NCBI GenBank assembly: GCA_900767645.1
Contig: CAAFZY010000040.1
Location: forward strand, 2,661 to 66,660
Direction of reading: 5' to 3'
DNA from: Alphaproteobacteria bacterium
GTDB taxonomy: Bacteria; Pseudomonadota; Alphaproteobacteria; RF32; CAG-239
Length of the DNA: 64,000 nucleotides
Part shown: in pieces, positions 1,138-56,697 of the stretch
Layout of the letters: each line of letters begins with the position of its first letter
How positions within the stretch are numbered: position 1 is the stretch's first letter
Notes under the pieces: model-generated
Told to the model about the DNA's origin: nothing
The model's database searches: none
The model's input: the letters and a program-made list of their open reading frames with translations, nothing else
Made by a program: the position numbers and the translations under genes

Positions 1138-2028
1138 TCAACTTTCAAATTTTTCAAGCAAAGATTCGAGCTCGGTTATATTATTATATGAAAGCACAAT
1201 TTTTCCCTTGCCGTTTTTTGAATTATTGATTTGAACCTTAACTCCAAAACGGGAACTTAACCCTTTTTCAATTTCAACCAACTCAGAATCTTTAATTTTT
1301 TGGGCTTTTGGCTTTAAAGGCGTTTTTTTCGGTTCTGGAGAAGAATCCTTCAGCTTAGCGGCCAACTCCTCAACTTGACGCACATTTAAGCCCTCAGCGA
1401 CGATTTTTTGAGCAAGCTCCTCCGCACCGTCTAAACCAATTAAAGCACGAGCGTGTCCCGCTGATAAATTTCCGTTATTTAACAACAACTTAACCCCTTC
1501 AGGAAGCGACAAAAGACGTAAAGTGTTAGCAATATAACTGCGCGATTTACCAACCACGGAAGACAGTTTTTCCTGAGTATAGTTAAAATCTTTAATAAGC
1601 TTATCAAATCCGGCGGCTTCTTCCAGAGCCGTTAAATTTTGACGAACAATATTTTCAACTAAAGCAACTTCAAGCACCTCATTGTCGGCCAGATTTTTTT
1701 CAATAACCGGAACTTCGGTTAATCCAGCTTTTTGAGCGGCACGAAAACGTCTTTCACCGGCAATAATTTCGTACTTGTCGTTTTTTTTACGAACCAAAAT
1801 CGGCTGCAAAATACCTTTTTCTTTTACCGACTGCGTTAAGGCATTGATAGCTTCATCATCAAAAGTTTGGCGCGGTTGAAATTTTCCGGCCTCAAGCTGA
1901 TTAATCGGCAAAGTTTTCACCGCCTGCTTCTGTTCGGCTGAAAAATCATCAATATTTAAATCAAGAGAATCATCTCCAAGCAAAGCGCCTAAACCGCGCC
2001 CTAAACCATGTTTATTATTTATGGCCAT
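1138..2028 (-). CDS. parB: Chromosome partitioning protein ParB
   Basis: N-terminal 'GLGRGLGALL' box and a ParB/Spo0J HTH region. It lies immediately downstream of parA in the conserved mnmE-mnmG-rsmG-parAB block. Confidence 0.9.
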   Translation of the reverse strand: MAINNKHGLGRGLGALLGDDSLDLNIDDFSAEQKQAVKTLPINQLEAGKFQPRQTFDDEAINALTQSVKEKGILQPILVRKKNDKYEIIAGERRFRAAQKAGLTEVPVIEKNLADNEVLEVALVENIVRQNLTALEEAAGFDKLIKDFNYTQEKLSSVVGKSRSYIANTLRLLSLPEGVKLLLNNGNLSAGHARALIGLDGAEELAQKIVAEGLNVRQVEELAAKLKDSSPEPKKTPLKPKAQKIKDSELVEIEKGLSSRFGVKVQINNSKNGKGKIVLSYNNITELESLLEKFES

Positions 2029-2030
2029 AA

Positions 2031-2798
2031 CTATATCTCCTTTTCACGCTTTAAAACTTCTTTGGCTAAATTGATATACGCTTGCGCGCCCACGCTCTTA
2101 AAATCATAAATAAGTATCGGTTTACCGTGCGACGGCGCTTCGGAAATACGCACGCTTCGCGGAATAACGGTTTGGTACACCAGTTCGCCAAAATATTGGC
2201 GCACATCTTTTTCAACCATTGAGCTTAAATTATTGCGGCGGTCAAACATAGTTAAAACAATTCCCTGTACTTTAAGTCCGGGATTAAACACTTTTTTTAT
2301 CTGATTGATATTTTTAACCAAATCAGTCAAACCCTCAAGCGCCAAAAACTCACATTGCAACGGAATGATTACCGAATTTGCGGCAACCAACGCATTGATG
2401 GTAATTAAATTTAATGATGGCGGACAATCAATCAAAACATAATCATATTTACCGGTTAGAGTCATTAAAGCGCGGCGCAATACAAATTCGCGCTTTTCAA
2501 CATCTATAAGTTCAATTTCAGCGCCGGCAAGCTCCGGTTTAGACGGTAAAATATAAAAATCAGGAATTTCACAAGTTTTAACGGCAAGTTCCGGATTGAT
2601 ATTATTGATTAAAACATCATACGACGAATACTCGCATTTACGCTTATCCACACCCATTGAGGTGGTTGCGTTGCCCTGCGGATCCAAATCAAGCACCAAA
2701 ACTTTTTTACCGATAGCAGCCATCGCTGTGGCAATATTAATCGCCGTGGTGGTTTTACCGACACCACCTTTTCGGTTTGCAACCGCAATTACTTTCAT
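2031..2798 (-). CDS. parA: Chromosome partitioning ATPase ParA
   Basis: Deviant Walker A 'KGGVGKTTTAINIA'. The stop is 2 bp from the parB start, and the start overlaps the rsmG stop by 4 bp. Confidence 0.9.
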   Translation of the reverse strand: MKVIAVANRKGGVGKTTTAINIATAMAAIGKKVLVLDLDPQGNATTSMGVDKRKCEYSSYDVLINNINPELAVKTCEIPDFYILPSKPELAGAEIELIDVEKREFVLRRALMTLTGKYDYVLIDCPPSLNLITINALVAANSVIIPLQCEFLALEGLTDLVKNINQIKKVFNPGLKVQGIVLTMFDRRNNLSSMVEKDVRQYFGELVYQTVIPRSVRISEAPSHGKPILIYDFKSVGAQAYINLAKEVLKREKEI

Positions 2799-3445
2799 TT
2801 TGATTTTCTCCTTAAATTTTCAAGCAACAAAACAACACCATCTGCTGAAGTTTCATTTTTACAAACTTCAAGCTTAAAATTCCACAATTTAGCGGCAGCT
2901 TCAAGTTCATCGCGGTAACTTTTGCCTTTAGGAAAAATAAGTTTGGTTTGACGGTTTGTAAATTTAAAAACATAGCCCAAAAGTTTATCTAATGAAGCAA
3001 CTGCGCGTGCTGTTATCACATCGGCGGGCGGCAACAAAACATCTTCGGTTCTTTTATTTAAGACAGTTACATTGCTTAAATTGAGCACTGTTTTAACTTC
3101 ATTTAAATACAGTGTTTTTTTACCTATACTTTCAATTAATGTAAACTTTAAGCGCGGATATTGTTCTTGTGCCATAACAGCAAGCACCAAAGCCGGAAAT
3201 CCGGCCCCGCTCCCCACATCATAAACAGAATCAACTTGATTATTTAAATATTTGAAAAGTTGAGCAGAATCCGCAATATGTCTTTGCCAAACATCAGGCA
3301 AAGAATTATTGCTTACCAAATTAAACTTAGCCTGCCACTCGTTTAAAAGAGCTACAAGTTGTTCAAGCTTTTGGTATGTTTCACGTGAAACACTGTATGT
3401 ATCAATAAAATTTTTCATAGATTTTTTATATAACGTCAACAACAA
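2795..3445 (-). CDS. rsmG: 16S rRNA (guanine527-N7)-methyltransferase RsmG (GidB)
   Basis: SAM-methyltransferase motif 'DVGSGAGFPALVLA'. It sits between mnmG and parA, as in the canonical gid operon. Confidence 0.85.
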   Translation of the reverse strand: MLLTLYKKSMKNFIDTYSVSRETYQKLEQLVALLNEWQAKFNLVSNNSLPDVWQRHIADSAQLFKYLNNQVDSVYDVGSGAGFPALVLAVMAQEQYPRLKFTLIESIGKKTLYLNEVKTVLNLSNVTVLNKRTEDVLLPPADVITARAVASLDKLLGYVFKFTNRQTKLIFPKGKSYRDELEAAAKLWNFKLEVCKNETSADGVVLLLENLRRKSK

Positions 3446-4319: not shown

Positions 4320-6182
4320 TTATTTACTCTTCAAATACCCTAAAATTGCCGTTATCGCCGCCGGAGTTACGCCGGTAATTCTTGATGCTTCCCCGATAGT
4401 TGCCGGACGAATTTTACTTAATCTGTCTACCATCTCGCGCGACAGACCGCCAATTTGATGATAATCTATATCATCACGCAAGCGCAAATTTTCATCCTTT
4501 TTAAAAACTTCAATATCTGCAAGTTGCCGTTTAATATAACCGGCATAGCGCGATTCAATTTCAACCTGCTCATAAATTTCAGAGTTATATTTACTGATTT
4601 CAGGAAACAACTTCAAAATTGATTCACGTGAAACATCATTATAACTCATTAAATGATAAGCAGTTCGCTTGGAACTGTCATGATTAACGGCAATTCCCGC
4701 TTTTTTTAATGAATCATAATCAACTTTTAACGTTTCAGAAAGCTTACGTAACTCATCAATCGCTTGTTTTTTTGCTTTAAATACACTGTATCTGTAATCA
4801 GAAACACATCCGACATCATAACCCTTTGCTGTTAATCGCATATCAGCATTATCAGCCCTGAGATATAAACGATATTCCGAACGTGAAGTAAACATTCGAT
4901 ACGGTTCATCAACGCCTTTGGTAATCAAATCATCAACCATAACGCCAATATAACCTTCACTGCGGTCAACAACAAAATCCCTGCCCTTATTTTCAGCTTT
5001 TAAGGCAGCATTAACACCGGCAAGCAAGCCTTGCGCAGCCGCCTCTTCATAACCGGTAGTTCCGTTGATTTGTCCGGCTAAAAACAAACCGGCAGCTTTT
5101 TTAACTTCTAAACAATGATTAAGTTCGCGCGGATCAACAAAATCATATTCAATAGCATATGCAGGACGTAAAATTTCAACATTTTCCAACCCCTCCATAG
5201 TATGAATAAACTGCTCTTGCACATCAGCAGGTAATGAAGTTGAAATTCCGTTAGGATAAACAACATCTGTATTTAACCCCTCCGGCTCTAAAAAAATTTG
5301 ATGACTGGTGCGGTCGGCAAATTTAACCAATTTATCTTCAATACTCGGACAATAACGAGGTCCGACACCGGTAATTAACCCTGAAAACAATGCGCACTTT
5401 GAAAAATTATCTCTGATTATCTTATGAGTTCGCTCATTGGTATGAGTAATATAACATTTAATTTGAGGATTAGTAATTTTATCGGTTAAATATGAAAACG
5501 GTTCCGGATTATCATCACCGCATTGTTCCGCTAAAATACTCCAATTGATAGTTTTACCGTTAAGTCGCGCCGGTGTTCCGGTTTTCAAACGGCCGGTTTT
5601 TAATCCCAATTGATTTAAATACGGTGTTATACCATTACAAGACACATCGTTCACGCGTCCGCCGACAGATGTTTTATGTCCGACAAACATTATTCCGTTT
5701 AAAAAAGTTCCGGTAGTTAAAACCACCGCTTTGGCAACAATTTCAGTATCATCAGCAAGCTTTACACCTTTTACTTCAAATTTATTATTTTCAGAATCAA
5801 GTAACAACCCTTCAACTGAGGCCTCAACAATTTCTAAATTATTCTGCTCTTGCAAAGCACTCAACATATACTTTTTATATAAATCACGGTCAGCCTGAGC
5901 ACGCGGTCCGCGCACAGCCGGTCCCTTAGAAGAATTAAGCATTCTGAACTGAATACCGGCTTTATCAATAACTTTTCCCATTAAACCGTCAAGCGCATCA
6001 ACTTCTCTGACCAAATGTCCTTTACCAAGTCCGCCGATTGCCGGATTACATGACATTTCTCCGATAGTTGATATTTTATGGGTAATCAAAACCGTATCGG
6101 CACCCATTCTAGCCGATGCGGCCGCAGCTTCACAGCCGGCATGACCACCGCCGACCACAATCACATCATAAACTTTTTTCAT
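4320..6182 (-). CDS. mnmG: tRNA uridine 5-carboxymethylaminomethyl modification enzyme MnmG (GidA)
   Basis: FAD-binding '[16 protein letters not shown]' N-terminus. The 620-aa length is typical of GidA. Confidence 0.95.
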
Positions 6183-6277: not shown

Positions 6278-7621
6278 TTATTTTCCGATACAAAACGACC
6301 CGAAAATTTTATCCAAAATTTCATCGACCTCTATACGACCGGTAATTTTACCCAATGCTCGAGCAGCAAGTCTTATATCCTCTGCCGACAATTCAATTTC
6401 TTTATCAAAATTAAAGCGACGCAAATTTTCAACACATTCATTTAACGCCTCGCGATAACGAGCTCGTGTAATCAAGACATTGGAATCTGAAGTAAAATTT
6501 TGCGCAATTTTATTACCTATATAATTAATAAGCTCTTCAATTCCTTTATTTTGCTTAACCGAAATCAAAAAACAACCTTCATCTTTTAATTTTGAACATT
6601 GTTCAAATGTTAATTTATCACTTTTATTTGCAACAAATAACAACTTGTTTTCAGAATCTTTTTTAATTTTATTAAATATATCAGGTGTATCCTGCGAGCC
6701 ATCAAATAAAGCAACAACCAAATCAGCATCTTTAATTTTATCAAAAGCTATTTCAATTCCCTGTTGCTCAATAACATCAGAAGCATCGCGAATACCTGCC
6801 GTATCGGTAAATATTACAGGATAACCTTTTATATTTAAATTAACGTCAACCGCATCACGAGTAGTGCCGGCAATATCCGAAACAATCGCAGCCTTGCGTT
6901 TAACAATAGCATTAAGCAAGCTTGATTTGCCGGCATTAGCCGGACCGGCAATAACAACTCTGAACCCCTCGCGCATTCTTTCACCATAATTAGCGTTACA
7001 TAAATGTTCATCTATTTCTTTAATTAATTTAAATACAGTGTTCAAATTAGACTCTTTTATGGCTTCAGGTATATCTTCGTCAGGAAAATCTATATAAGCC
7101 TCTAAATAAGCATAAACCTTTAACAACTCTTCACGCCATCCGTCATATAAATTTTTAAGTCCGCCTTCCATTTGACGAATAGCATATTTTTGTTGTTCGG
7201 AAGTTTCGGCGTCAATCAAATCAGCCAAACCTTCAGCTTCGGTTAAATCCATTTTATTATTGTAAAACGCTCGGCGAGAAAATTCACCTGCTTCGGCAAG
7301 ACGAAAACCGGCAATTTCAGATAACGAAGCAAGAACAGAACTTAAAACAGCATGAGAACCGTGACACTGAATTTCAATAACATCTTCACCGGTAAAAGAG
7401 TGAGGAGCCTTAAAATACAAAAGCAACGCTTTATCCAATGTTTCATGTGAAACGGAATCTTTTATATCAGTAAAATAAGCATAACGAGGTTTAATTTCCG
7501 ATATTTTTATATCAGTCATCAAACCAATAACATCAGAAGCGTGTTCGCCTGAAATTCTGATTACGGCGACGCCTGATTTACCAAAAACCGTTGAAAGCGC
7601 ATATATTGTTTTATTATCCAT
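6278..7621 (-). CDS. mnmE: tRNA modification GTPase MnmE (TrmE)
   Basis: G-domain motifs 'GPANAGKSSLLN' and 'DTAGIR', and the C-terminal 'CIGK' end characteristic of MnmE. Confidence 0.9.
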   Translation of the reverse strand: MDNKTIYALSTVFGKSGVAVIRISGEHASDVIGLMTDIKISEIKPRYAYFTDIKDSVSHETLDKALLLYFKAPHSFTGEDVIEIQCHGSHAVLSSVLASLSEIAGFRLAEAGEFSRRAFYNNKMDLTEAEGLADLIDAETSEQQKYAIRQMEGGLKNLYDGWREELLKVYAYLEAYIDFPDEDIPEAIKESNLNTVFKLIKEIDEHLCNANYGERMREGFRVVIAGPANAGKSSLLNAIVKRKAAIVSDIAGTTRDAVDVNLNIKGYPVIFTDTAGIRDASDVIEQQGIEIAFDKIKDADLVVALFDGSQDTPDIFNKIKKDSENKLLFVANKSDKLTFEQCSKLKDEGCFLISVKQNKGIEELINYIGNKIAQNFTSDSNVLITRARYREALNECVENLRRFNFDKEIELSAEDIRLAARALGKITGRIEVDEILDKIFGSFCIGK

Positions 7622-7794
7622 TTTAACCTCGTTGTTATTTTGATAAACTAAATAATATTTATTAATATTTATATAAATTTTTGATTTTAAGCCCCTCAGA
7701 GCGATTTTTAGATTTTTTTAACAGTTATATTATAGCTTGTGTTAAAATGCGCTCTACGGGCTTTATACGAGTTCAAATTTTTTAAGGATTAAAA

Positions 7795-8463
7795 ATGAAA
7801 AAGAAGCTTATAATTTGGGATTTTGACGGCGTAATCGCCGATACTGAAAAACTTTGGCTTAAAAACAGACAAATTTTAATGAAAGAAGCCTTAGGCATAG
7901 ATTGGGATTGGCAAACCATAAATCATTACTTGCGCGGAACCGGCGACCGAACTAAACGTATGGTGCTTGATAATTTAGGTATAACCACAGATGACGACTT
8001 CTGGAATAAAAGTATTGAAATGGATATTAACACCATGCACAGCGAAGGTTTTGAATTAACCGACGGCATTGAAGATATATTCAAGTTGCCTGTTAAACAA
8101 TGTATTGCCACCGGAGGAGTCAAGGATAAAACCGCTGAAAAAATCAAAATAACCGGTATTAAAAATTACTTTCCGGACGATAAAGTTTTTACTATTGATA
8201 TGGTAAAAAACGGAAAACCGGAACCTGATTTATTTTTACTCGCAGCCGAAAAAATGGGTGAAAAACCTGAAGATTCCGTTGTTATTGAAGATTCAATCGC
8301 CGGTCTTACCGCCGCTGTTAAAGCCGGCTGTTTGCCGATTGCTTTTTTGGCAGGTGATATTGAAAACGACCAAATTCACCTTGAAAAGGTTAAAAAGCTT
8401 GGAATTAAATACATTTTTCACAATATGAAAGACGTAAAAAATTTAATTAACGAACTATTTTAA
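7795..8463 (+). CDS. HAD-IA family hydrolase (beta-phosphoglucomutase / phosphatase-like)
   Basis: HAD motif I 'IWDFDGVIADTE' plus the downstream HAD motifs. It is divergent from mnmE. Confidence 0.7.
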   Translation: MKKKLIIWDFDGVIADTEKLWLKNRQILMKEALGIDWDWQTINHYLRGTGDRTKRMVLDNLGITTDDDFWNKSIEMDINTMHSEGFELTDGIEDIFKLPVKQCIATGGVKDKTAEKIKITGIKNYFPDDKVFTIDMVKNGKPEPDLFLLAAEKMGEKPEDSVVIEDSIAGLTAAVKAGCLPIAFLAGDIENDQIHLEKVKKLGIKYIFHNMKDVKNLINELF

Positions 8464-9141
8464 CCAAATTGCATCAGTAATTTTATCGGTCAAAAATTTT
8501 TCATGTTCTTGCAACTCTTGTTCAGAAAGCGGAAAATTTCGAGCTTGCCGGTAAACACGACTGGTTTGTCCATGCTCGGCTTTACGCTCGGAAACAACCT
8601 CGGCATCAAGCTTCATGGTTGGTTCGGCTCCGCCTAAAAGCTCTAAATAAACCTCAGATAAAAGTTCCGCATCAAGCAAAGCGCCATGCTTGGTACGGGC
8701 AGAGTTATCAATATTAAAACGGCGGCATAAAGCGTCAAGATTATTACGGGCTCCCGGAAATTTTTCACGAGCTATTTCCAGAGTATCAATCACTCGACTT
8801 TGCGGATAGGTCGGAAACCCCTTATGCTTAAACTCGTAGTTAATAAAATTAATATCAAATGAGGCATTATGAGCAACCAAAATGCCGTCATCACCTACAA
8901 AATCGATAAAATCTTGTGCAATTTCATGCAGTTTCGGATAATTTTTTAAAAAATCATACGTCAACCCATGCACTTTTACAACCTCTTCAGGAACATCACG
9001 CTCCGGATTGATATATTGGTGATAAGTACGGCCGGTCGGCATATGATTAATCAATTCAACCGCCCCTATTTCAACCAATTTATCGCCTTCTTGCGGGCTT
9101 AAACCGGTTGTTTCGGTATCAAAAACAATTTCTCTTAACAT
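8455..9141 (-). CDS. dnaQ: DNA polymerase III epsilon subunit (3'-5' exonuclease)
   Basis: Exo I motif 'VFDTETTGL' and DEDDh motifs ('HNASFD'). It overlaps the coaE stop by 7 bp, matching the coaE-dnaQ pairing typical of alphaproteobacteria. Confidence 0.85.
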   Translation of the reverse strand: MLREIVFDTETTGLSPQEGDKLVEIGAVELINHMPTGRTYHQYINPERDVPEEVVKVHGLTYDFLKNYPKLHEIAQDFIDFVGDDGILVAHNASFDINFINYEFKHKGFPTYPQSRVIDTLEIAREKFPGARNNLDALCRRFNIDNSARTKHGALLDAELLSEVYLELLGGAEPTMKLDAEVVSERKAEHGQTSRVYRQARNFPLSEQELQEHEKFLTDKITDAIWLK

Positions 9142-9725
9142 TTTACACCAATTTCCTCAATTAACATTGCAAGCTCAGCTTTAAGTATTCCGATAGATTT
9201 GTCGGTATCAACCGCATAATCTGATAAAAATATTCTGTCATTATTACTCATTTGCACCGCATTAATTTTTTCAAACTCGGCCTCTGAAATATTATCGCGC
9301 AGCATAACTCGTTGTTTTTGCACATTATAAGGAGCATCAGCAACTATTATGTCCGTGCAATACTTTTCCCAACCCATTTCAAACAACAGCGCAACATCAA
9401 CAAATATAACATCTTCACCACAAGATGCTGCTTTACGGATTACCGACAAAAACTTTTGTTTCAAAAACGGGTGAGTTAAAGTTTCAAGCTTTTTAAGTTT
9501 AACATTATCATCAAACACAAGCGTACGTAATTTTCGCTTATTAAAAACGCCATTTTGCCAACTTTCCGGAAAGTTTTGATAAATTACGCTTAAAAACCTA
9601 TCATCATAATAAAGTTGACGACACCATTTATCAATATCATAAACAACAAATCCCAACCGGCGGATAAGTCCGGCAATTGTCGTTTTACCACATCCGATTG
9701 AGCCGGTTATTGCGATAATTCTCAT
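9135..9725 (-). CDS. coaE: Dephospho-CoA kinase
   Basis: P-loop 'IAITGSIGCGKTT'. The ~196-aa size is typical of CoaE. Confidence 0.85.
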   Translation of the reverse strand: MRIIAITGSIGCGKTTIAGLIRRLGFVVYDIDKWCRQLYYDDRFLSVIYQNFPESWQNGVFNKRKLRTLVFDDNVKLKKLETLTHPFLKQKFLSVIRKAASCGEDVIFVDVALLFEMGWEKYCTDIIVADAPYNVQKQRVMLRDNISEAEFEKINAVQMSNNDRIFLSDYAVDTDKSIGILKAELAMLIEEIGVKC

Positions 9726-9756
9726 ATTTTTTCCTTATTTTAGCAACTTAGCTCAG

Positions 9757-10099
9757 TTATGCACAATTAAGCAACAAACTGTGCATAACTTTGTAACATT
9801 GAGCGCATTATAACTATTTATGAAGATAATTAAAAACATTTCAGATACTTTATTAACATCTAAAATAATTTTAATCACAGCTGTTAATTTTGTGCAAAGC
9901 TCATTTTATTAACAAGTAGTTAATTTTTACTAAGTGATTGAATCCGAAAATCATTAATATTTTATTAATAAAGTTATTAACAGATTGTTAAACTTTAGTA
10001 TAAGTTTGTGGATAAAAACTTATCCCCAATAATCGCACAGATATACTATTAACTACTATAATTTTAAAATTTAAATTTGGGCGATAAGGGTGTGCATAA
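9757..10099. promoter_or_regulatory. Cluster of DnaA-box-like 9-mers (TTATNCACA) in the AT-rich intergenic region upstream of rho
   Basis: Read directly from the sequence: ttatgcaca at 9757-9765; tgtgcataa at 9780-9788; tgtggataa at 10007-10015, which is the reverse complement of the perfect box TTATCCACA; ttatcccca at 10020-10028; tgtgcataa at 10091-10099. The first two form a 9-bp inverted repeat. Confidence 0.5.
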
Positions 10100-10199
10100 A
10101 TCCGGCTAAAAAGCAATTGACTTTTTTTGAGCTGTTGCGTATATATATAGCTGTTACATTCGTAACTTTCCAGTTTAATTTTCAAACAAAAAGGTTCAT

Positions 10200-11453
10200 A
10201 TGCATTTAAAGGAATTAAAAGACAAATCTCCGCAAGAGTTGCTTACATGGGCGGAAGATTTAGGCGTTGAAGACGCATCATCAATGCGTGTTCAAGATTT
10301 GGTTTTTGCCATTATGAAAAAAGTTGCCTCGGAAGACAACGTTATATATGGCGACGGGGTTATTGAGGTTTTACAAGACGGATTTGGTTTTTTACGTTCT
10401 TCAAAATCTAATTATTTAGCAAGTCCTGACGATATTTATGTTTCACCGGCTCAAGTTAAAAAATTCGGTTTGAGAACCGGAGATACGGTGGAAGGCGAAA
10501 TCAGAGCACCTAAAGATAACGAACGTTACTTTGCCTTAACCAAAATTAACACTATCAACTATGAAAATCCCGAAAAATCAAAATTGAGAGTTAATTTTGA
10601 CAACTTAACTCCGTTGTATCCTACAAAAAAACTCAACTTTGATATTATTTGCGGCGAAAAAGATTACACAACCCGTGTTATAGATTTAATTGCACCGCAA
10701 GGTAAAGGGCAGCGAGGGTTGATTGTGGCTCCGCCGCGTACAGGTAAAACGGTTATGCTGCAAAATATTGCCCACGCCATTGCCGTTAATCATCCTGAGG
10801 TTTATTTAATAGTGCTTTTAATTGACGAACGTCCGGAAGAAGTTACCGATATGACGCGTTCGGTTAAAGGAGAGGTTGTTTCATCAACCTTTGATGAACC
10901 GGCAACCCGCCATGTTCAAGTGGCTGAATTAGTGATTGAAAAAGCCAAGCGTTTGGTGGAAACCAAAAAAGACGTAGTTATTTTACTTGATTCTATTACT
11001 CGTTTAGGGCGCGCATACAACGCCGTGGTGCCGTCATCAGGTAAGGTTTTAACCGGCGGTGTTGACGCAAATGCTTTACAACGTCCTAAAAGACTGCTCG
11101 GCGCTGCTCGTAATGTGGAAGAAGGCGGCTCGTTGACTATTATTGCCACCGCATTGATTGATACCGGATCGCGTATGGATGAAGTTATTTTTGAAGAGTT
11201 TAAAGGTACCGGAAATTCTGAAATTATTCTTGACCGCAAGCTTACGGATAAACGCTTATTCCCAACTATTGATATAACACGTTCCGGAACACGTAAAGAA
11301 GAGTTGTTGGTTGATAAAAACACTCTTTCAAAGATGTGGGTTCTGCGCCGTGTGTTAATGCAAATGGGTATGACCGACGGTATGGAATTTTTACTTGATA
11401 AACTCAGAATGTCGAAAGATAATCAAGATTTCTTTAACAATATGAACAGTTAA
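10200..11453 (+). CDS. rho: Transcription termination factor Rho
   Basis: Cold-shock-like N-terminal domain plus the RecA-type ATPase core with Walker A 'PPRTGKT'. 417 aa. Confidence 0.95.
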
Positions 11454-17300: not shown

Positions 17301-17815
17301 TGCAAAACCTAAAGGCCGGAGATAATTTGAAAGCTAATATAGCCGTTTGTGTCGAAAGTTTTCATAAACGGTTAAGTAAATCAGGCAATAAATATGCTTT
17401 TGTAGGTTTTTCCGACGCATCAGGAACCATAGAGGCATTTTTGTTTGCTGACGGATTGGTAAAATATGAAAATGTTTTATCTTCGGATGATCCAGTTTTG
17501 GTTAAAATTACTGTTGATAAACAAACGGAAGAGGCCGCTCCGCGCGTGATGATAAATTCGGTTAAAAAACTTGATGATGCAATTGCCGAACAGGCTAAAG
17601 GATTAATTATCACCGTCGGAAGCGTCAGCGCGGTGAAGCAATTGAAAGAAATTTTACAAACCGATAAAAAAGGTACTAACAAAGTATATATTATACCAGA
17701 TATTCCCGATTGGGATTTAAGAATGGAACTTCCTGACGGTTATGCTTTTTATGATACCGGAATTATCGGTAAAATCAGAAACATTGCCGGCATTACCGAT
17801 GTTAAGGAGATATAA
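14315..17815 (+). CDS. dnaE: DNA polymerase III alpha subunit
   Basis: PHP N-terminus 'IHLRVHTAYSLSEG', the polymerase core, and the OB-fold C-terminus. 1166 aa. The true start may be the internal Met at 14342. Confidence 0.95.
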   Translation: MSKFKRPVKMQNPKFIHLRVHTAYSLSEGAIKIGDLIHYLHQKNIPAIAVTDSGNMFGGKAFSKYASEEGVKPILGCIFFMRNPDSDNLLLTKGKAVERDKLILLVMNSTGYENIMKLMKLFYLDNTANGDDPQLKYSDLEQYNEGLIALTGGVDGAVGRLLLENRAEEAEQMLQTLQKIFSNRLYIEISRIGLESEQKTEQSFIDFAYKYNIPLVATNEVFFFDQSMYEAHDALICIAAGEVLANDKRKHFSPNNRLRSEDEMVELFKDLPEAVENTVKIAQRCNYLSTKVKPLLPIFECPDGKTQDEYITEEAHKGLAERMQKHVYFEGMTDEQKAEIDKKYYDRLEYELSVIKRMGFPGYFLIVSDFIRWSKTHGVPVGPGRGSGAGSIVAWSLKITELDPIKLELLFERFLNPDRVNMPDFDVDFCQENRFKTIEYVQNKYGFDHVAQIITYGKLQSKAVIRDVARVLQMPYTQADKISKMIPNPVQGKNVSLQEALDQVPELEDMRQHDPQVNKLFDIAMKLEGLYRHSGVHAAGVVIGDRPLDQLVPLYKDPKADMPVTQYDMKYVEETGLIKFDFLGLKTLTVIKKAVDWVKKVKGIDLDMDSIPLDDKPTYEMMQRGDTAAVFQFESAGMKDVHKQIKPDRFEDLIAIVSLYRPGPMDNIPTYIKRKHGEEKITYLHPSLAPILDETYGIMVYQEQVMNIARALGGYTMGEADKLRKVMGKKQREEIPKQREKFTKGAIANGISEDVAKSIFDQMEKFASYGFNKSHAAAYSLISYQTAYLKAHYPVEFMCAVMDLDIINTDKLAFFVAECRSTGMEILKPDINLSDADFRVEDNKIRYALGAIKGVGSSYMQGIVEERYRNGPFKSISDFCNRVDIKNVNRKQMYQLVKAGAFDCLEKNRAMLCENVDIMVSNIFASSETKKSEQQSLFGSEELCGKIKLKEIPDWSNLEKLRHEAEAIGFYLSAHPLDIYAESAKKLGVKSCTSVLQNLKAGDNLKANIAVCVESFHKRLSKSGNKYAFVGFSDASGTIEAFLFADGLVKYENVLSSDDPVLVKITVDKQTEEAAPRVMINSVKKLDDAIAEQAKGLIITVGSVSAVKQLKEILQTDKKGTNKVYIIPDIPDWDLRMELPDGYAFYDTGIIGKIRNIAGITDVKEI

Positions 17816-17816
17816 A

Positions 17817-18581
17817 ATGGCTGATAATAAATATATTGCGCTTAAAGCGGTGGTAAATCCGCTATGGGTTATATCCGATAAAATGGTGATTTTTGCAAAA
17901 ACAGCCGGAGTTTTTGCCGTCTTTTTAACATTATTATCTTATATTTTCGGGCAAACTTACGCCTGTGTTTTTACAACAGAGCATACGGAGCCGTTATATT
18001 GTTTGGGAAACTCATTGCTGTATTTTCCGTATCTTATGATTAAAATGTTGATAATAAATATTTTTGTGCTGTATTGGCTTAAAAAAGTTATGTTTAATCA
18101 AACAATAAACAAAACGGCGGCGGCTAAAAGCGTCGGAGTGTTCTTTTTATTTATTGTTGCTAATTTGTTGCCGTTGGTTTCCGCTTTTTTGTTGTTGGTA
18201 CGTAAGCCTAATCCGGTTTGGCAAATTGAAATTGTTTATTTTACAATTGTATCATTAGGATTTTTGGCTCCGTTTGTTTTGATGCGCTTTTATGCCGTAT
18301 TGGCAGGCGTAATTAATGACAATGTTCCCGATATGTTAAAAACTGTTTGGAAAAATACCGGCGGATATACGGCTAAAATAGTTATTTCCGCCATATTGGT
18401 TTATTTAATTGTAATTTTAACGGTAATAAGCGTTAATTCGGTGATTTTACGATTGGCAGGAATTTTACCTTTGTATATTTATAATTTAACCGCTGAATAT
18501 GTTTTTAATTTTATGCTTTTGTTTGTTGTAACTTTAATTGTTAATTTTATAAATTATCAAAGACAGATGTTTTTGAAATAA
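17817..18581 (+). CDS. Hypothetical polytopic membrane protein
   Basis: The ATG lies 1 nt after the dnaE stop. The track ORF starting at 17742 would overlap dnaE. Several hydrophobic segments; no recognisable family. Confidence 0.45.
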   Translation: MADNKYIALKAVVNPLWVISDKMVIFAKTAGVFAVFLTLLSYIFGQTYACVFTTEHTEPLYCLGNSLLYFPYLMIKMLIINIFVLYWLKKVMFNQTINKTAAAKSVGVFFLFIVANLLPLVSAFLLLVRKPNPVWQIEIVYFTIVSLGFLAPFVLMRFYAVLAGVINDNVPDMLKTVWKNTGGYTAKIVISAILVYLIVILTVISVNSVILRLAGILPLYIYNLTAEYVFNFMLLFVVTLIVNFINYQRQMFLK

Positions 18582-21118: not shown

Positions 21119-22285
21119 TTGATTATTGAAAATAAAATGGTTCGTGCTCATCATTACGGAATGTATTTTAAAAAAATAAATAAAGTGATAATCGCCGCTT
21201 TGTTGGTTTTTATCATTGTTTTTAACGTGTTTAAATTCAGCCGCTATGCCGAGAGTACCAATAATTTGATTGTGACCTACAATTCTCCGGTTGACATATT
21301 GAAAGATTTTCGCAATCCGCTATTGGCGGAAATGTATTTTACTGAAAATTATACCGCAGAAAAAGACTTAAAAATGATTGTGCTGCCGTTTGATAACCGA
21401 ATTTTCGGACAGCAGGCAATAAAAGCATTGATAAAAAAAATTAAACCGTATCAAAGCAAACCAATTATATTTGCGGTGGAAGCCGAATACAATGATTTTG
21501 CCGATAAGGTGGCTGAAAAATTAAATATTAATGCGCAAAAATCGGAAAACAATGAACTGGTTATATTGCAGAGGCTTAATAAAGACAATGCTTTGGTTTT
21601 TGTAATTGCGGATACGGATAATAATCAGGTGGTGAATATTGCCAAGCAATTAAATTTGCGTCCGCATGTTTTTGATTTAAATGCCAAATTTCCGGCATTA
21701 GATGACAAGCCAATCAAAACAGAAAAAGAAATACCGGATTTAGAACAGCAAGAGTATAATTTAAAGCAGTTTGTATCAGATTATAAAAACCAACTTAACG
21801 GTTTTTTATCCGCTGTTTCGGAAGGTAAAAACGATATGCCCGAATATTCGGCCGTTACAGAGCATATGTTTGATAAAGGAGCGACACAAGTGCTTGCTTT
21901 TGATGAAAATACCGACCAATACGGGCAGTTTGGCGATGTTTTTGCCGATACGGCTTTGGCTCGTTCTTTGATAAACGGTTTTTTGTTGGCAAAAAATGAA
22001 ATGCCGCAGGCAAAATATAAGTTTTTTGTGCTTACCAAAGCGGAAAAGAAAAACTACGCCGATGAGCAAATGTTTGCCGATGAACTGAAAATCGGAGTTG
22101 ACGGTGTTATGCTGGTGAGCGGTTATCGTCAGGCAATGTTTTTACCGTACTTTTGGAAACTGTATCCCGATAAAAAAGGTTTTATTAAAAATCTTAAAAT
22201 CAGTGCCGGTTTAAGCCCTGATTATTGGTCAAAAAAAATTAAAGTTTATTATTTCAGAGCAGTGGAGGTAAAATATGAAAATTAA
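21119..22285 (+). CDS. Membrane-anchored hypothetical protein with a weak AMMECR1-like C-terminal region
   Basis: N-terminal transmembrane segment. The C-terminal 'SGYRQAMFLPYFWKLYPDKKGFIKNLKISAGLSPDYW' loosely resembles the AMMECR1 'R-x-A-x-(Y/F)LP...(K)AGL' segment. The upstream CxG motif of that family was not found. Confidence 0.3.
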   Translation: MIIENKMVRAHHYGMYFKKINKVIIAALLVFIIVFNVFKFSRYAESTNNLIVTYNSPVDILKDFRNPLLAEMYFTENYTAEKDLKMIVLPFDNRIFGQQAIKALIKKIKPYQSKPIIFAVEAEYNDFADKVAEKLNINAQKSENNELVILQRLNKDNALVFVIADTDNNQVVNIAKQLNLRPHVFDLNAKFPALDDKPIKTEKEIPDLEQQEYNLKQFVSDYKNQLNGFLSAVSEGKNDMPEYSAVTEHMFDKGATQVLAFDENTDQYGQFGDVFADTALARSLINGFLLAKNEMPQAKYKFFVLTKAEKKNYADEQMFADELKIGVDGVMLVSGYRQAMFLPYFWKLYPDKKGFIKNLKISAGLSPDYWSKKIKVYYFRAVEVKYEN

Positions 22286-46352: not shown

Positions 46353-46362
46353 CGATTTTTAA

Positions 46363-46389
46363 GCCGGAGAGTAAAATCTCCGGTTTTTT
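46363..46389 (+). terminator. Rho-independent terminator after the cupin gene
   Basis: ccggaga-gtaaaat-tctccgg, followed by T6. Confidence 0.7.
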
Positions 46390-46488
46390 GTTGTGCATAA
46401 GTTTGTTAAAAACTCATTTCGTGATTGCGAATCTGTAAAAGTTAAATAATAGTTAATACGAAAATTAACCTGACTTTAAGGATTTGAA

Positions 46489-55895: not shown

Positions 55896-56687
55896 ATGTA
55901 TTTATGGGTTGTATTAGCAACGTTTATTACGGTTTTGCTGTCATATAATTTGTCAGTAAGACCGGATATGGACAGAGCTTTTGCAGAAACAAAAGCAAGC
56001 GTTGTTATTGCCAAATTTAGGGCGTTGCATAACGGGGTTAAAGACTATTTAAATTCTCAAGCGCCTGAAAAAACAGGTCAGGCTCGTGTAACATATTATC
56101 CCGGTACCGGTGTAAATGTTTCAACACCGGAAGGTTCGCAAGCTTCATCTTTAACAGTTGATGACATCAGAAATTATTTGCCGGTCGGCTATATTAAGGC
56201 AGATGAAACCTTAGACGATATTGCCAACATTACCGGCGGCGGAAAAATTGTCAGTAAGGTTTTTTGCTTTGACGAGGGCGAAACCAATGTACAATGCACT
56301 TCCGGAGTTGACGGAAGCTGTTGCAGCAATGAATGTATTGCCGATGACGATTGTTCCAGTATATATGTTGTTTCGTTTACACAAATGCCCACAAGGTGGA
56401 TTAATAAAATTTCCAATATGCCGAATGCCGATATGATGGGCGCCCTAACCCATATGCGCGGTTATGGCAAAGATATCGGCTATACCGATATTAAAAACGG
56501 CAAAGTGATTTTGAGCGGCGGACAAGCCGTTCAGCATTATGACGAGTACGGCAATCCGGTTGGCGAACGAGCTTTTGAAAGTTTTGAAATTTTCGGAGCA
56601 ATTAAAAACGACGCTGATTTTCAGGATATGGGCTGTGACAAAGAAAATGTTCATTGCTTGTTTACAATACAACAAATTTACGGTTAG
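55896..56687 (+). CDS. Hypothetical Cys-rich protein with N-terminal membrane anchor, possibly pilin-like; first gene of a two-gene operon
   Basis: Good RBS gaggtg, and an in-frame stop 9 nt upstream fixes the start. The N-terminal ~20 hydrophobic residues are followed by an amphipathic helix resembling a pilin alpha1. The C-terminal region carries 12 Cys, including a 'CFDEGETNVQCTSGVDGSCCSNECIADDDCSS' cluster. Confidence 0.45.
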   Translation: MYLWVVLATFITVLLSYNLSVRPDMDRAFAETKASVVIAKFRALHNGVKDYLNSQAPEKTGQARVTYYPGTGVNVSTPEGSQASSLTVDDIRNYLPVGYIKADETLDDIANITGGGKIVSKVFCFDEGETNVQCTSGVDGSCCSNECIADDDCSSIYVVSFTQMPTRWINKISNMPNADMMGALTHMRGYGKDIGYTDIKNGKVILSGGQAVQHYDEYGNPVGERAFESFEIFGAIKNDADFQDMGCDKENVHCLFTIQQIYG

Positions 56688-56697
56688 GAGAAAACAA

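What the first reader, a model, noticed from the sequence alone, without database searches (positions are those of the whole stretch)
9726..10199. AT-rich 474-bp intergenic region upstream of rho carrying at least five DnaA-box-like 9-mers, including a perfect TTATCCACA
The boxes were read directly: ttatgcaca and tgtgcataa (an inverted pair 14 bp apart), tgtggataa (the reverse complement of the consensus), ttatcccca, and a second tgtgcataa. A cluster of TTATNCACA boxes in a long AT-rich spacer is the hallmark of oriC or of DnaA-titrating or DnaA-regulated loci (datA/DARS-like, dnaA or nrd promoters). The window also contains parAB, hdaA, a MipZ-like gene and a CckA-like kinase, so replication and cell-cycle functions are concentrated here. 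Either this is the replication origin in a non-canonical position relative to hemE/dnaA, or rho is DnaA-controlled. Both would be notable.
Basis: partly seen in the sequence, partly recalled or inferred. Interest (0 to 1): 0.55.

Follow-up and report, generated by a model that had tools for sequence, protein, structure and literature searches.

The report
Replication origin of a gut alphaproteobacterium
The AT-rich spacer upstream of rho is very probably the chromosome's replication origin, an ordinary Caulobacter-type origin in the usual alphaproteobacterial neighbourhood that looks misplaced only because the genes that normally flank it, hemE among them, have been lost.

Summary
Window 9726-10199 (474 bp, 26% GC) carries four exact TTATNCACA boxes and one TTATCCCCA, out of six exact boxes in 64 kb; 0 of 5000 local shuffles reach four.

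Three independent results point to the chromosomal origin.
1. Third-codon-position GC skew is negative for 10/10 genes to the left and positive for 38/43 to the right, whatever the coding strand. The best change-point lies between coaE and rho.
2. About 50 alphaproteobacterial loci have dnaQ-coaE-aroE-maf-DUF299 | ori | hemE-rho-mnmE-mnmG-rsmG-parA-parB. Here everything between coaE and rho is gone. A short inversion of the rho-ori-coaE-dnaQ segment explains the local gene order.
3. Across six gut species, 63/68 motif-specified bases are invariant, against 27% of the other bases. The N positions and the CtrA spacers vary.

A 40-bp AT tract (10039-10078) between inward-facing boxes is the likely unwinding site. 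The rho promoter lies inside the origin, so DnaA control of rho is possible but untested.

This is a new member of a known kind, of modest interest. Confirming it needs a whole-genome skew or coverage analysis.

The parts
9726..10199 (.). Whole coaE|rho intergenic region. Proposed oriC together with the divergent promoters of coaE-dnaQ and rho.
   Evidence: 474 bp, 26% GC. Richest of 16 intergenic regions in DnaA and CtrA motifs. The change-point in GC3 skew falls here.
9757..9765 (+). DnaA box 1, TTATGCACA
   Evidence: Present at the same place in six species as TTAT[G/A/C]CACA, with one mismatch in L093.
9780..9788 (-). DnaA box 2, TTATGCACA on the - strand. Inverted partner of box 1, 14 bp away.
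   Evidence: TGTG[C/T]ATAA is kept in all six species.
9831..9841 (.). Conserved block TAAAAACATTT with no assigned factor
   Evidence: Identical in five of six species; only its first part (TAAAA) is kept in L093, where the rest falls in an alignment gap.
9850..9867 (.). TTATTAACA followed by a degenerate CtrA-type site (TTAACATCTAAAATAA). The TTATTAACA 9-mer recurs at CtrA sites a and c.
   Evidence: It is a full TTAA-N7-TTAA in L001 (TTAACATGTTATTAA). TTATTAACA is found at three positions in the window and four of the five relatives, and at two in L093.
9909..9923 (.). CtrA-type site a, TTAACAAGTAGTTAA
   Evidence: Both TTAA halves are invariant in six species while the spacer varies.
9940..9944 (.). 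GANTC site (GAATC), the CcrM-type methylation motif
   Evidence: Conserved in six species, with N = A or G.
9954..9968 (.). CtrA-type site b, TTAATATTTTATTAA
9977..9991 (.). CtrA-type site c, TTAACAGATTGTTAA
10007..10015 (-). DnaA box 3, a perfect TTATCCACA on the - strand
   Evidence: TGTG[G/C]ATAA in five of six species.
10020..10028 (+). DnaA box 4, TTATCCCCA, facing the AT-rich tract
   Evidence: It is a perfect TTATCCACA in L093.
10039..10078 (.). Candidate DNA-unwinding element, a 40-bp AT-rich tract
   Evidence: Least stable 40-mer of the spacer and fourth least stable of the whole 64 kb (-37.1 against a mean of -51.4 kcal/mol, sd 4.8). Flanked by inward-facing boxes 4 and 5. Its role as the unwinding site is an inference.
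10079..10090 (.). G+C-rich 12-bp spacer between the AT tract and box 5
   Evidence: G+C-rich in all six species. It resembles the spacer between the unwinding element and box R1 in E. coli (own knowledge).
10091..10099 (-). DnaA box 5, TTATGCACA on the - strand, 17 bp upstream of the rho -35 element
   Evidence: TGTG[C/G]ATAA is kept in all six species.
10117..10145 (+). Likely rho promoter, TTGACT-N17-TATATA
   Evidence: Read from the sequence. TTGAC and TATATA are conserved in five species. The consensus scan did not flag it, because the scan requires T at the last -10 position.
10153..10166 (+). Hairpin in the rho 5' leader, GTTAC-ATTC-GTAAC
   Evidence: Consensus fold of five species; two pairs show compensatory changes.
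10200..11453 (+). rho, first gene of the right replichore
   Evidence: TIGR00767, 685 bits.
8455..9725 (-). coaE-dnaQ operon, first genes of the left replichore
   Evidence: TIGR00152 and NF004316.
3377..3392 (.). Perfect parS, TGTTTCACGTGAAACA. Weaker copies at 4620-4635 and 7439-7454.
   Evidence: three matches against 0.42 expected. These centromere sites lie 2.3-6.4 kb from the spacer.
1138..2798 (-). parA-parB partition operon

Best explanation
The coaE|rho spacer is the chromosomal replication origin (oriC) of an uncultured, low-G+C gut alphaproteobacterium, and it is built like Caulobacter Cori.

Proposed mechanism (inferred unless marked otherwise):
- DnaA binds five positionally conserved boxes: an inverted pair at the coaE end, a back-to-back pair (boxes 3 and 4), and box 5.
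- Boxes 4 and 5 face inwards across a 40-bp AT tract (10039-10078). DnaA oligomers probably open the duplex there.
- Three to four CtrA-type TTAA-N7-TTAA sites fill the centre of the origin, next to boxes 3 and 4. They would let phosphorylated CtrA, driven by the CckA-type kinase encoded in the window, block initiation as it does in Caulobacter.
- One conserved GANTC provides a CcrM-type methylation mark.
- Replication then runs outwards. coaE-dnaQ-mnmE-mnmG-rsmG-parAB are co-oriented on the left arm, and rho-eno-dnaE-serS on the right arm.
- The rho promoter, and necessarily the coaE-dnaQ promoter, lie inside the origin. The rho promoter occupies the place that the hemE promoter holds in Cori, so outward transcription and DnaA or CtrA occupancy could influence each other.

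Evolution: the origin sits in the ancestral slot, but hemE and the DUF299-maf-aroE genes between coaE and rho have been lost. In this genus the short rho-ori-coaE-dnaQ segment has also been inverted.

Shown here: the motifs, their conservation, the synteny and the local skew switch. Inferred: factor binding, the unwinding site, CtrA repression and any coupling to the promoters.
For: 1. Motif enrichment. Four exact TTATNCACA boxes lie in 474 bp against six in 64 kb, and 0 of 5000 local shuffles reach four. Three TTAA-N7-TTAA sites are reached by 13 of 5000 shuffles. No other of the 16 intergenic regions compares.

2. Leading-strand switch. GC3 skew on the window + strand is negative for 10/10 genes left of the spacer (mean -0.21), including the two + strand genes. 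It is positive for 38/43 genes to the right (mean +0.21), including 21/22 - strand genes. Fisher p = 5e-8, and the best change-point lies between coaE and rho. L087 extends the left arm to about 19 kb, with 16/17 genes showing the expected sign. The cumulative GC-skew minimum of the window is at 9-10 kb.

3. Synteny. About 50 alphaproteobacterial loci show dnaQ- coaE- ... rho+ mnmE+ mnmG+ rsmG+ parA+ parB+. In Brevundimonas the stretch between coaE and rho holds aroE-maf-DUF299 | intergenic region | hemE-hemH. In Bartonella it is DUF299 | intergenic region | rho, with no hemE. The hemE/DUF299 boundary is the mapped Caulobacter origin (PMC6393856, PMC1914354).

4. Gut relatives. L093 and L095 have rho | intergenic region | coaE directly adjacent, with the canonical arm order. 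L001 and L090-L092 share the window's order.

5. Phylogenetic footprint across six species (CoaE identity 58-98%). Invariant positions: 35/40 specified DnaA-box bases but 0/5 of the N positions; 24/24 CtrA half-site bases against 6/21 spacer bases; 4/4 GANTC bases. Only 77/290 of the other bases are invariant (p = 9e-25).

6. A 40-bp AT tract between boxes 4 and 5 is the fourth least stable 40-mer in 64 kb.

7. Origin-proximal context. parS sites and parAB lie 2-8 kb away. dnaQ, dnaE, hdaA, a CckA-like kinase and a MipZ-like gene are in the window.
Against: - No whole-chromosome skew, marker-frequency or functional data exist. The skew switch is seen over only about 73 kb.
- In the family-level relative L093 the rho-side arm has GC3 skew near 0 rather than negative. 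That is a step at the spacer, not a clean sign change, although TA3 skew is negative for 9/10 genes there. L092 is also noisy.
- There is no IHF consensus site in the window's spacer, and the sites seen in relatives are not positionally conserved.
- No convincing DnaA-trio array adjoins any box (read against the rules in PMC8287927).
- dnaA, ctrA and ccrM were not seen in the sequence available, so the presence of the proposed factors in this genome is assumed.
- The defining hemE/COG1806 boundary genes are absent.
Confidence: 0.85

Rival explanations
1. The spacer is only a regulatory region. DnaA (and CtrA) would control the divergent rho and coaE-dnaQ promoters, and the origin would lie elsewhere.
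For: Box 5 lies 17 bp upstream of the rho -35 element. Boxes 1 and 2 lie 32-63 bp upstream of the coaE start codon. DnaA and CtrA are both known transcription factors (PMC6393856). dnaQ is a replication gene for which DnaA control would make sense.
Against: Five boxes, three to four CtrA sites and an AT tract are far more than known DnaA-regulated promoters carry (own knowledge). The strand-composition switch falls exactly here. The position is the conserved alphaproteobacterial origin slot. The central CtrA and box 3/4 block is more than 100 bp from either likely promoter.
Confidence: 0.08
2. The spacer is a datA- or DARS-like site that titrates or recharges DnaA and is located near, but is not, the origin.
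For: It is a cluster of strong consensus boxes in non-coding DNA. An Hda-type system of regulatory inactivation of DnaA is present.
Against: datA and DARS sites are defined in enterobacteria, need IHF or Fis sites, and lie away from oriC (own knowledge). No IHF consensus is present here. CtrA sites and an AT-rich tract flanked by boxes are origin features. The skew change-point coincides with the spacer.
Confidence: 0.03
3. The boxes are a chance or compositional artefact of a long AT-rich spacer.
For: The spacer is 26% GC. One-mismatch hits such as TTATTAACA arise easily in AT-rich DNA.
Against: No local dinucleotide shuffle out of 5000 reaches four exact boxes. Other equally AT-rich spacers in the window have none. 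Motif-specified bases are 93% invariant across six species, against 27% for the rest.
Confidence: 0.01

Closest known systems
Caulobacter crescentus Cori, the hemE/duf299 origin. It was mapped experimentally and is the type example of alphaproteobacterial origins (PMC6393856; Brassinga et al., cited in PMC1914354).
   Same: It lies in the same chromosomal neighbourhood, with a coaE-dnaQ arm on one side and a rho-mnmE-mnmG-rsmG-parAB arm on the other. It combines DnaA boxes, several TTAA-N7-TTAA CtrA sites, GANTC and a roughly 40-bp AT-rich tract. An outward-reading promoter sits inside the origin (hemE in Cori, rho here). parS and parAB lie a few kb away.
   Different: hemE and duf299 are absent, so rho and coaE are the boundary genes. 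Four of the five boxes match the TTATNCACA consensus that serves as the E. coli high-affinity reference, whereas Cori has two moderate G-boxes and five weak W-boxes. It has three to four CtrA sites rather than five, and one GANTC rather than five. No IHF consensus was found. No CtrA full site overlaps a strong DnaA box; only the weak TTATTAACA 9-mers overlap CtrA half-sites.
Predicted origins of Rickettsiales: Rickettsia (hemE/COG1806) and Wolbachia, Ehrlichia and Anaplasma (COG1253/hemE) (Ioannidis et al. 2007, PMC1914354).
   Same: They are compact (about 380-620 bp), AT-rich intergenic origins. They were defined by TTATNCACA boxes plus TTAA-N7-TTAA sites in reduced, low-G+C genomes, and rearrangement has replaced one of their boundary genes.
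   Different: Those origins keep hemE as one boundary and usually have an IHF site. Here both canonical boundary genes are gone.
Bartonella DUF299|rho intergenic region
   Same: hemE is missing, so rho directly borders the AT-rich spacer presumed to be the origin. The spacer is 564 bp and 21% GC, and carries one exact TTATTCACA box, seven one-mismatch DnaA boxes, one CtrA site and one GANTC.
   Different: Bartonella keeps DUF299-maf-aroE on the other side and has only one exact DnaA box. I did not establish that this region is Bartonella's origin, and the literature search found no paper describing it.
E. coli oriC left half (unwinding element, then box R1)
   Same: An AT-rich tract is followed by a G+C-rich spacer of about 12 bp and then a box reading TGTGNATAA on the same strand. 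Here these are 10039-10078, 10079-10090 and 10091-10099 (own knowledge of the E. coli sequence).
   Different: There are no 13-mer repeats and no GATC cluster or SeqA-type logic. The CtrA sites belong to Alphaproteobacteria.

Membership tests
Alphaproteobacterial Cori-type chromosomal origin | Lies in the conserved origin gene cluster, bounded by hemE and/or COG1806 (DUF299) (criterion a of PMC1914354) | tested here: not met
   Neither gene is present between coaE and rho, nor anywhere in the 64-kb window. The next-outer markers of the same cluster do flank the spacer: coaE-dnaQ on one side and rho on the other. So the slot is conserved even though the literal boundary genes are not.
Alphaproteobacterial Cori-type chromosomal origin | Cluster of DnaA boxes (TTATNCACA) in an intergenic region | tested here: met
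   Four exact boxes and one with one mismatch. 0 of 5000 shuffles reach this. Conserved in six species.
Alphaproteobacterial Cori-type chromosomal origin | CtrA binding sites (TTAA-N7-TTAA) | tested here: met
   Three perfect sites and one degenerate site. The half-sites are 24/24 invariant while the spacers vary. Binding by CtrA itself was not tested.
Alphaproteobacterial Cori-type chromosomal origin | IHF binding site (WATCAANNNNTTR or WATCAN5WTR) | tested here: not met
   No match in the window's spacer. Matches in L001 and L091-L093 are not positionally conserved.
Alphaproteobacterial Cori-type chromosomal origin | A+T content above the genome average, with an AT-rich unwinding tract | tested here: met
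   The spacer is 26% GC against about 31-48% in 1-kb steps across the window. The 40-mer at 10039-10078 is among the four least stable in 64 kb.
Alphaproteobacterial Cori-type chromosomal origin | No other intergenic region has a comparable set of sites (criterion c of PMC1914354) | tested here: inconclusive
   True for the 16 intergenic regions of this window. The rest of the genome is not available.
Alphaproteobacterial Cori-type chromosomal origin | Coincides with the switch in strand compositional skew, with origin polarity | tested here: met
   The GC3-skew change-point lies between coaE and rho. Left: 10/10 genes negative; right: 38/43 positive. This is local evidence over about 73 kb. 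Relatives L091 and L095 agree; L093 shows a step without a sign change.
Alphaproteobacterial Cori-type chromosomal origin | Supports initiation in vivo (autonomous replication, marker-frequency peak) | not testable with these tools
   The organism is uncultured and no read-coverage data are available here.
Alphaproteobacterial Cori-type chromosomal origin | The genome encodes DnaA, CtrA, CckA and CcrM | tested here: inconclusive
   A CckA-like kinase aligns full-length to the CckA models at 546 bits, below the curated cut-off. HdaA is also present. dnaA, ctrA and ccrM are not in the 64 kb and could not be searched genome-wide.
DnaA-regulated promoter (dnaA or nrd type) | DnaA box(es) overlapping or next to the core promoter, with expression that responds to DnaA | tested here: inconclusive
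   Box 5 ends 17 bp upstream of the rho -35 element. The position is compatible, but the response cannot be tested.
datA / DARS DnaA-titrating or reactivating sites | DnaA-box cluster with IHF or Fis sites, located away from oriC | tested here: not met
   No IHF consensus. The locus coincides with the skew switch and with the conserved origin slot.
DnaA-box / DnaA-trio basal unwinding system (PMC8287927) | A box or tandem boxes, then a spacer of at most 16 bp, then at least three NAN trios on the correct strand | tested here: inconclusive
   Fourteen bp after box 4 the top strand reads ATA-CTA-TTA, which gives three trios on the complementary strand. The register then breaks by 1 nt, and the conserved A's are not 3-periodic. 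Such a pattern is expected by chance in AT-rich DNA.

The most novel reading that the evidence does not exclude
This would be a minimal 'promoter-embedded' origin. The genes for the transcription terminator Rho and for the proofreading subunit DnaQ would be transcribed outwards from inside oriC, and would be gated by the same DnaA and CtrA occupancy that times initiation. Strong consensus DnaA boxes facing inwards across the unwinding tract would replace Caulobacter's weak-box logic. That would imply a different balance between DnaA and CtrA in anaerobic gut Alphaproteobacteria.
Probability: 0.25. Interest if true: 0.45.

Novelty: new member of a known kind. Interest (0 to 1): 0.3.

Why it matters
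It gives a well-supported origin for a widespread but uncultured group of human-gut Alphaproteobacteria, whose MAGs are labelled 'Azospirillum sp. CAG' or 'uncultured Alphaproteobacteria'. That is useful for anchoring genome assemblies and for growth-rate estimates from metagenomic coverage (peak-to-trough ratio). It also shows that searching near hemE misses origins in lineages that have lost haem biosynthesis. The coaE-dnaQ | rho pair is a more robust landmark. The clean six-species footprint suggests that the Caulobacter-type CtrA and CcrM control logic extends to these gut anaerobes. It is not a new kind of element.

Tried and rejected
- IHF sites: neither the strict nor the loose consensus matches in the window's spacer.
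- DnaA-trios: I compared the sequence by eye with the published search rules. The result is equivocal and I make no claim.
- Rfam scan of 9500-10400: only two sub-threshold chance hits, so no known RNA explains the conservation.
- Sigma-70 consensus scan: 3 hits against 3.9 expected. It did not flag the TTGACT-N17-TATATA element because it requires T at the last -10 position. No convincing coaE promoter was found.
- Whole-sequence GC skew alone is confounded by gene orientation, so I replaced it with per-gene third-position skew.
- Extending the skew test to relatives gave mixed support. L091 and L095 agree, L092 is noisy, and L093 has a flat rho-side arm. I report this as a caveat and do not explain it away.
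- Exact TTATNCACA counts in 80 other alphaproteobacterial rho loci are mostly 0-2. The box density seen here is therefore not general, and those loci could not be used for a motif alignment.
- Literature searches for an origin next to rho in Bartonella, or in gut 'RF32' bacteria, found nothing relevant.
- I considered searching for a ctrA homologue. I dropped the idea because the protein databases cannot tie a hit to this particular genome.

Full report
**1. The observation**

The region 9726-10199 is the 474-bp spacer (25.9% GC) between coaE (9135-9725, - strand) and rho (10200-11453, + strand).

- TTATGCACA at 9757-9765 (+)
- its inverted partner TGTGCATAA at 9780-9788, 14 bp further on
- TGTGGATAA at 10007-10015, a perfect TTATCCACA on the - strand
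- TTATCCCCA at 10020-10028
- TGTGCATAA at 10091-10099

Four of the six exact TTATNCACA matches in the 64-kb window lie here. In 5000 dinucleotide-preserving shuffles of the spacer itself the mean count is 0.05, the maximum is 2, and none reaches 4. None of the other 15 intergenic regions of at least 100 bp has more than one exact box, although several are just as AT-rich.

There are three perfect CtrA-type sites TTAA-N7-TTAA at 9909, 9954 and 9977, which is 3 of the 11 in the window and is reached by 13 of 5000 local shuffles. There is also a single GANTC at 9940.

**2. Organism and surroundings**

The gene order is CCA-adding enzyme (+), then parB, parA, rsmG, a PHP phosphatase, mnmG and mnmE (all -), a HAD hydrolase (+), and dnaQ and coaE (-). 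The spacer follows. After it come rho (+), a LuxR-type response regulator (-), dCMP deaminase (-), and eno, dnaE, a hypothetical gene and serS (+).

Further right the window encodes HdaA, a hybrid kinase whose best full-length matches are the CckA models, and a MipZ-like ATPase.

A perfect parS (TGTTTCACGTGAAACA, 3377-3392) and two weaker copies lie 2.3-6.4 kb left of the spacer.

Identical Rho proteins occur on contigs from human-gut metagenomes, including Hadza samples. The nearest species representative is an 'uncultured Alphaproteobacteria bacterium' MAG. More distant CoaE relatives are named 'Azospirillum sp. CAG:260' or 'Azospirillum sp. 47_25' by their sources. From my own knowledge such bins belong to the gut order RF32; I did not test this.

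**3. The strand-composition switch**

Plain GC skew reaches its cumulative minimum at 9-10 kb, but it is confounded by gene orientation. I therefore computed GC skew at third codon positions for each gene and expressed it on the window + strand.
- All 10 genes left of the spacer are negative (mean -0.21). These include the two genes coded on the + strand (-0.22 and -0.30).
- On the right, 38 of 43 genes are positive (mean +0.21), including 21 of 22 genes coded on the - strand.
- Fisher p = 5e-8, and the best single change-point is between coaE and rho.
- A contig reached through parB extends the left arm to about 19 kb, and 16 of its 17 genes have the expected sign.

The polarity, with G exceeding C on the strand read away from the spacer on both sides, is that of an origin and not of a terminus. 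Gene orientation also diverges from the spacer.

**4. Synteny**

Among 80 alphaproteobacterial rho loci, about 50 show the same layout: dnaQ(-) coaE(-), then 2.6-6 kb, then rho(+) mnmE mnmG rsmG parA parB.

In Brevundimonas the stretch between coaE and rho holds aroE, maf and DUF299 (all -), then an intergenic region, then hemE and a hemH-like gene (+). That hemE/DUF299 spacer is where the Caulobacter origin was mapped, and it is used as a landmark for alphaproteobacterial origins (PMC6393856, PMC1914354).

In Bartonella hemE is missing and rho directly borders the AT-rich spacer. In a Pelagibacter-like genome the boundary is maf | rho.

In the window everything between coaE and rho has gone. 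The spacer therefore occupies the canonical slot, and it is the landmark genes that are missing.

Family-level gut relatives (L093, L094, L095; CoaE about 58% identical) also have rho | intergenic region | coaE directly adjacent, but they keep the canonical arm order parB-parA-gidB-mnmG-mnmE-HAD-rho | coaE-dnaQ. The window's closer relatives (L001, L090-L092) share the window's order. A single inversion of the short rho-ori-coaE-dnaQ segment turns one order into the other, and it preserves each gene's orientation relative to the origin. This inversion is an inference.

**5. Phylogenetic footprint**

I aligned the spacers of six species with CoaE identity from 58 to 98%. The following are kept in position: boxes 1, 2, 3, 4 and 5, the three CtrA-type sites, the GANTC, a TAAAAACATTT block, three copies of TTATTAACA, the AT tract, the G+C-rich spacer before box 5, and the rho promoter and leader.

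Invariant positions:

| Class of position | Invariant |
|---|---|
| DnaA-box specified bases | 35/40 |
| DnaA-box N positions | 0/5 |
| CtrA half-site bases | 24/24 |
| CtrA N7 spacer bases | 6/21 |
| GANTC specified bases (N varies A/G) | 4/4 |
| Remaining bases of 9726-10110 | 77/290 (27%) |

Motif-specified bases against the rest give p = 9e-25. CtrA half-sites against their own spacers give p = 2e-7. Constraint on exactly the specified bases, with free variation at the unspecified ones, is what protein-binding sites of these two classes predict.

**6. Anatomy and proposed mechanism**

From left to right the spacer contains:
- the coaE start
- the inverted pair box 1 and box 2 (9757-9788)
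- a conserved AT-rich stretch with TAAAAACATTT and a degenerate CtrA site (9831-9867)
- CtrA site a (9909)
- GANTC (9940)
- CtrA sites b and c (9954, 9977)
- the back-to-back boxes 3 and 4 (10007-10028)
- a 40-bp AT tract (10039-10078)
- a 12-bp G+C-rich spacer
- box 5 (10091-10099)
- the rho promoter TTGACT-N17-TATATA (10117-10145)
- a conserved leader hairpin (10153-10166)
- the Shine-Dalgarno sequence and the rho start codon

The AT tract is the least stable 40-mer of the spacer and the fourth least stable in 64 kb. Boxes 4 and 5 both point into it. The arrangement of AT tract, G+C-rich spacer and TGTGNATAA resembles the unwinding element and box R1 of E. coli (own knowledge).

I infer the following. 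DnaA bound at boxes 3-5 opens this tract. Phosphorylated CtrA bound at the central sites blocks orisome assembly, as in Caulobacter, where five CtrA sites compete with DnaA (PMC6393856). Outward transcription from the rho promoter may assist or respond to opening, as reported for one hemE promoter in Cori (PMC6393856). None of these steps was tested.

**7. Caveats**

- No IHF consensus is present.
- A DnaA-trio array cannot be asserted (and the sequence).
- In L093 the rho-side arm has GC3 skew near 0 instead of negative. There is a step at the spacer but not a sign change. TA3 skew is negative for 9 of 10 genes on that side.
- L092 is noisy, while L091 and L095 agree with the window.
- dnaA, ctrA and ccrM are not in the available sequence.
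- The skew evidence covers about 73 kb, not the whole chromosome.

**8. Rival explanations**

- A purely regulatory spacer, with DnaA and CtrA controlling rho and coaE-dnaQ, fits the positions of boxes 1, 2 and 5. It does not explain the skew change-point, the conserved origin slot, or the central block of CtrA sites, boxes 3 and 4 and the AT tract (confidence 0.08). Regulation may well coexist with origin function.
- A datA- or DARS-like site is unlikely, because there is no IHF site and the locus coincides with the skew switch (0.03).
- Chance is excluded.

**9. Comparison with known origins and verdict**

The element works like Caulobacter Cori and like the compact predicted origins of Rickettsiales. 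It meets their criteria for DnaA boxes, CtrA sites, AT-richness and skew. It fails the literal hemE/COG1806 boundary criterion and the IHF criterion.

It differs from Cori in several ways. Four of its five boxes match the TTATNCACA consensus, where Cori has weak G- and W-boxes. It has a single GANTC. Its boundary genes are rho and coaE.

I rate it a new member of a known kind, with 0.85 confidence that it is oriC and an interest score of about 0.3. Its practical value is as an origin landmark for hemE-less Alphaproteobacteria and for coverage-based growth estimates of these gut bacteria.

Noticed in passing
window 46353-46488: This 136-bp spacer upstream of apaG carries one TTATGCACA (46392-46400, - strand), two TTAA-N7-TTAA sites (46442, 46465) and one GANTC. 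It is the only other intergenic region of the window with both motif classes. hdaA and the CckA-like kinase gene lie just downstream, in convergent orientation. It may be a promoter co-regulated by DnaA and CtrA.
   Followed up: no
window 10153-10166: A conserved hairpin, GTTAC-ATTC-GTAAC, lies in the rho 5' leader. L001 shows a compensatory A-U to G-C change and L090 a G-U wobble. It could be a leader element for rho autoregulation or a palindromic protein-binding site.
   Followed up: partly
window 3377-3392, 4620-4635, 7439-7454: One perfect parS and two near-perfect copies lie inside or next to rsmG, mnmG and mnmE, 2.3-6.4 kb from the proposed origin (3 matches against 0.42 expected).
   Followed up: partly
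L093 1-9490: In the 'Azospirillum sp. CAG:260'-type relative, the rho-side arm next to the homologous spacer has GC3 skew near 0 instead of negative. The coaE side is +0.11 to +0.37. This is unexplained. A recent rearrangement or weak skew on that arm are possibilities.
   Followed up: partly
window 7795-8463 and the junctions at about 7622-7794 and 8455-8463: The HAD hydrolase gene sits between mnmE and dnaQ here, but between mnmE and rho in L093 and L095. This marks one breakpoint of the inferred inversion of the rho-ori-coaE-dnaQ segment. The dnaQ 3' end overlaps the HAD 3' end by 9 bp.
   Followed up: partly
window 26444-29868: A serine recombinase (resolvase) gene is followed by a low-G+C stretch (30-35% GC) that encodes a DUF6782 putative metallopeptidase and small proteins with no family match. 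It may be a small mobile island on the right replichore.
   Followed up: no
window 9850-9858, 9906-9914, 9974-9982: The 9-mer TTATTAACA occurs three times, at the same positions in the window and four of the five relatives, and at two of them in L093. Each copy overlaps the first TTAAC of a CtrA-type site and is one mismatch from a DnaA box. It could be an extended CtrA half-site or a point where weak DnaA binding and CtrA binding overlap.
   Followed up: partly
window 56539-60114, 22275-23993, 17742-18581: Large ORFs of 1191, 572 and 279 aa have no Pfam or NCBIfam match. The 1191-aa ORF also has atypical negative GC3 skew (-0.11) for its position.
   Followed up: no
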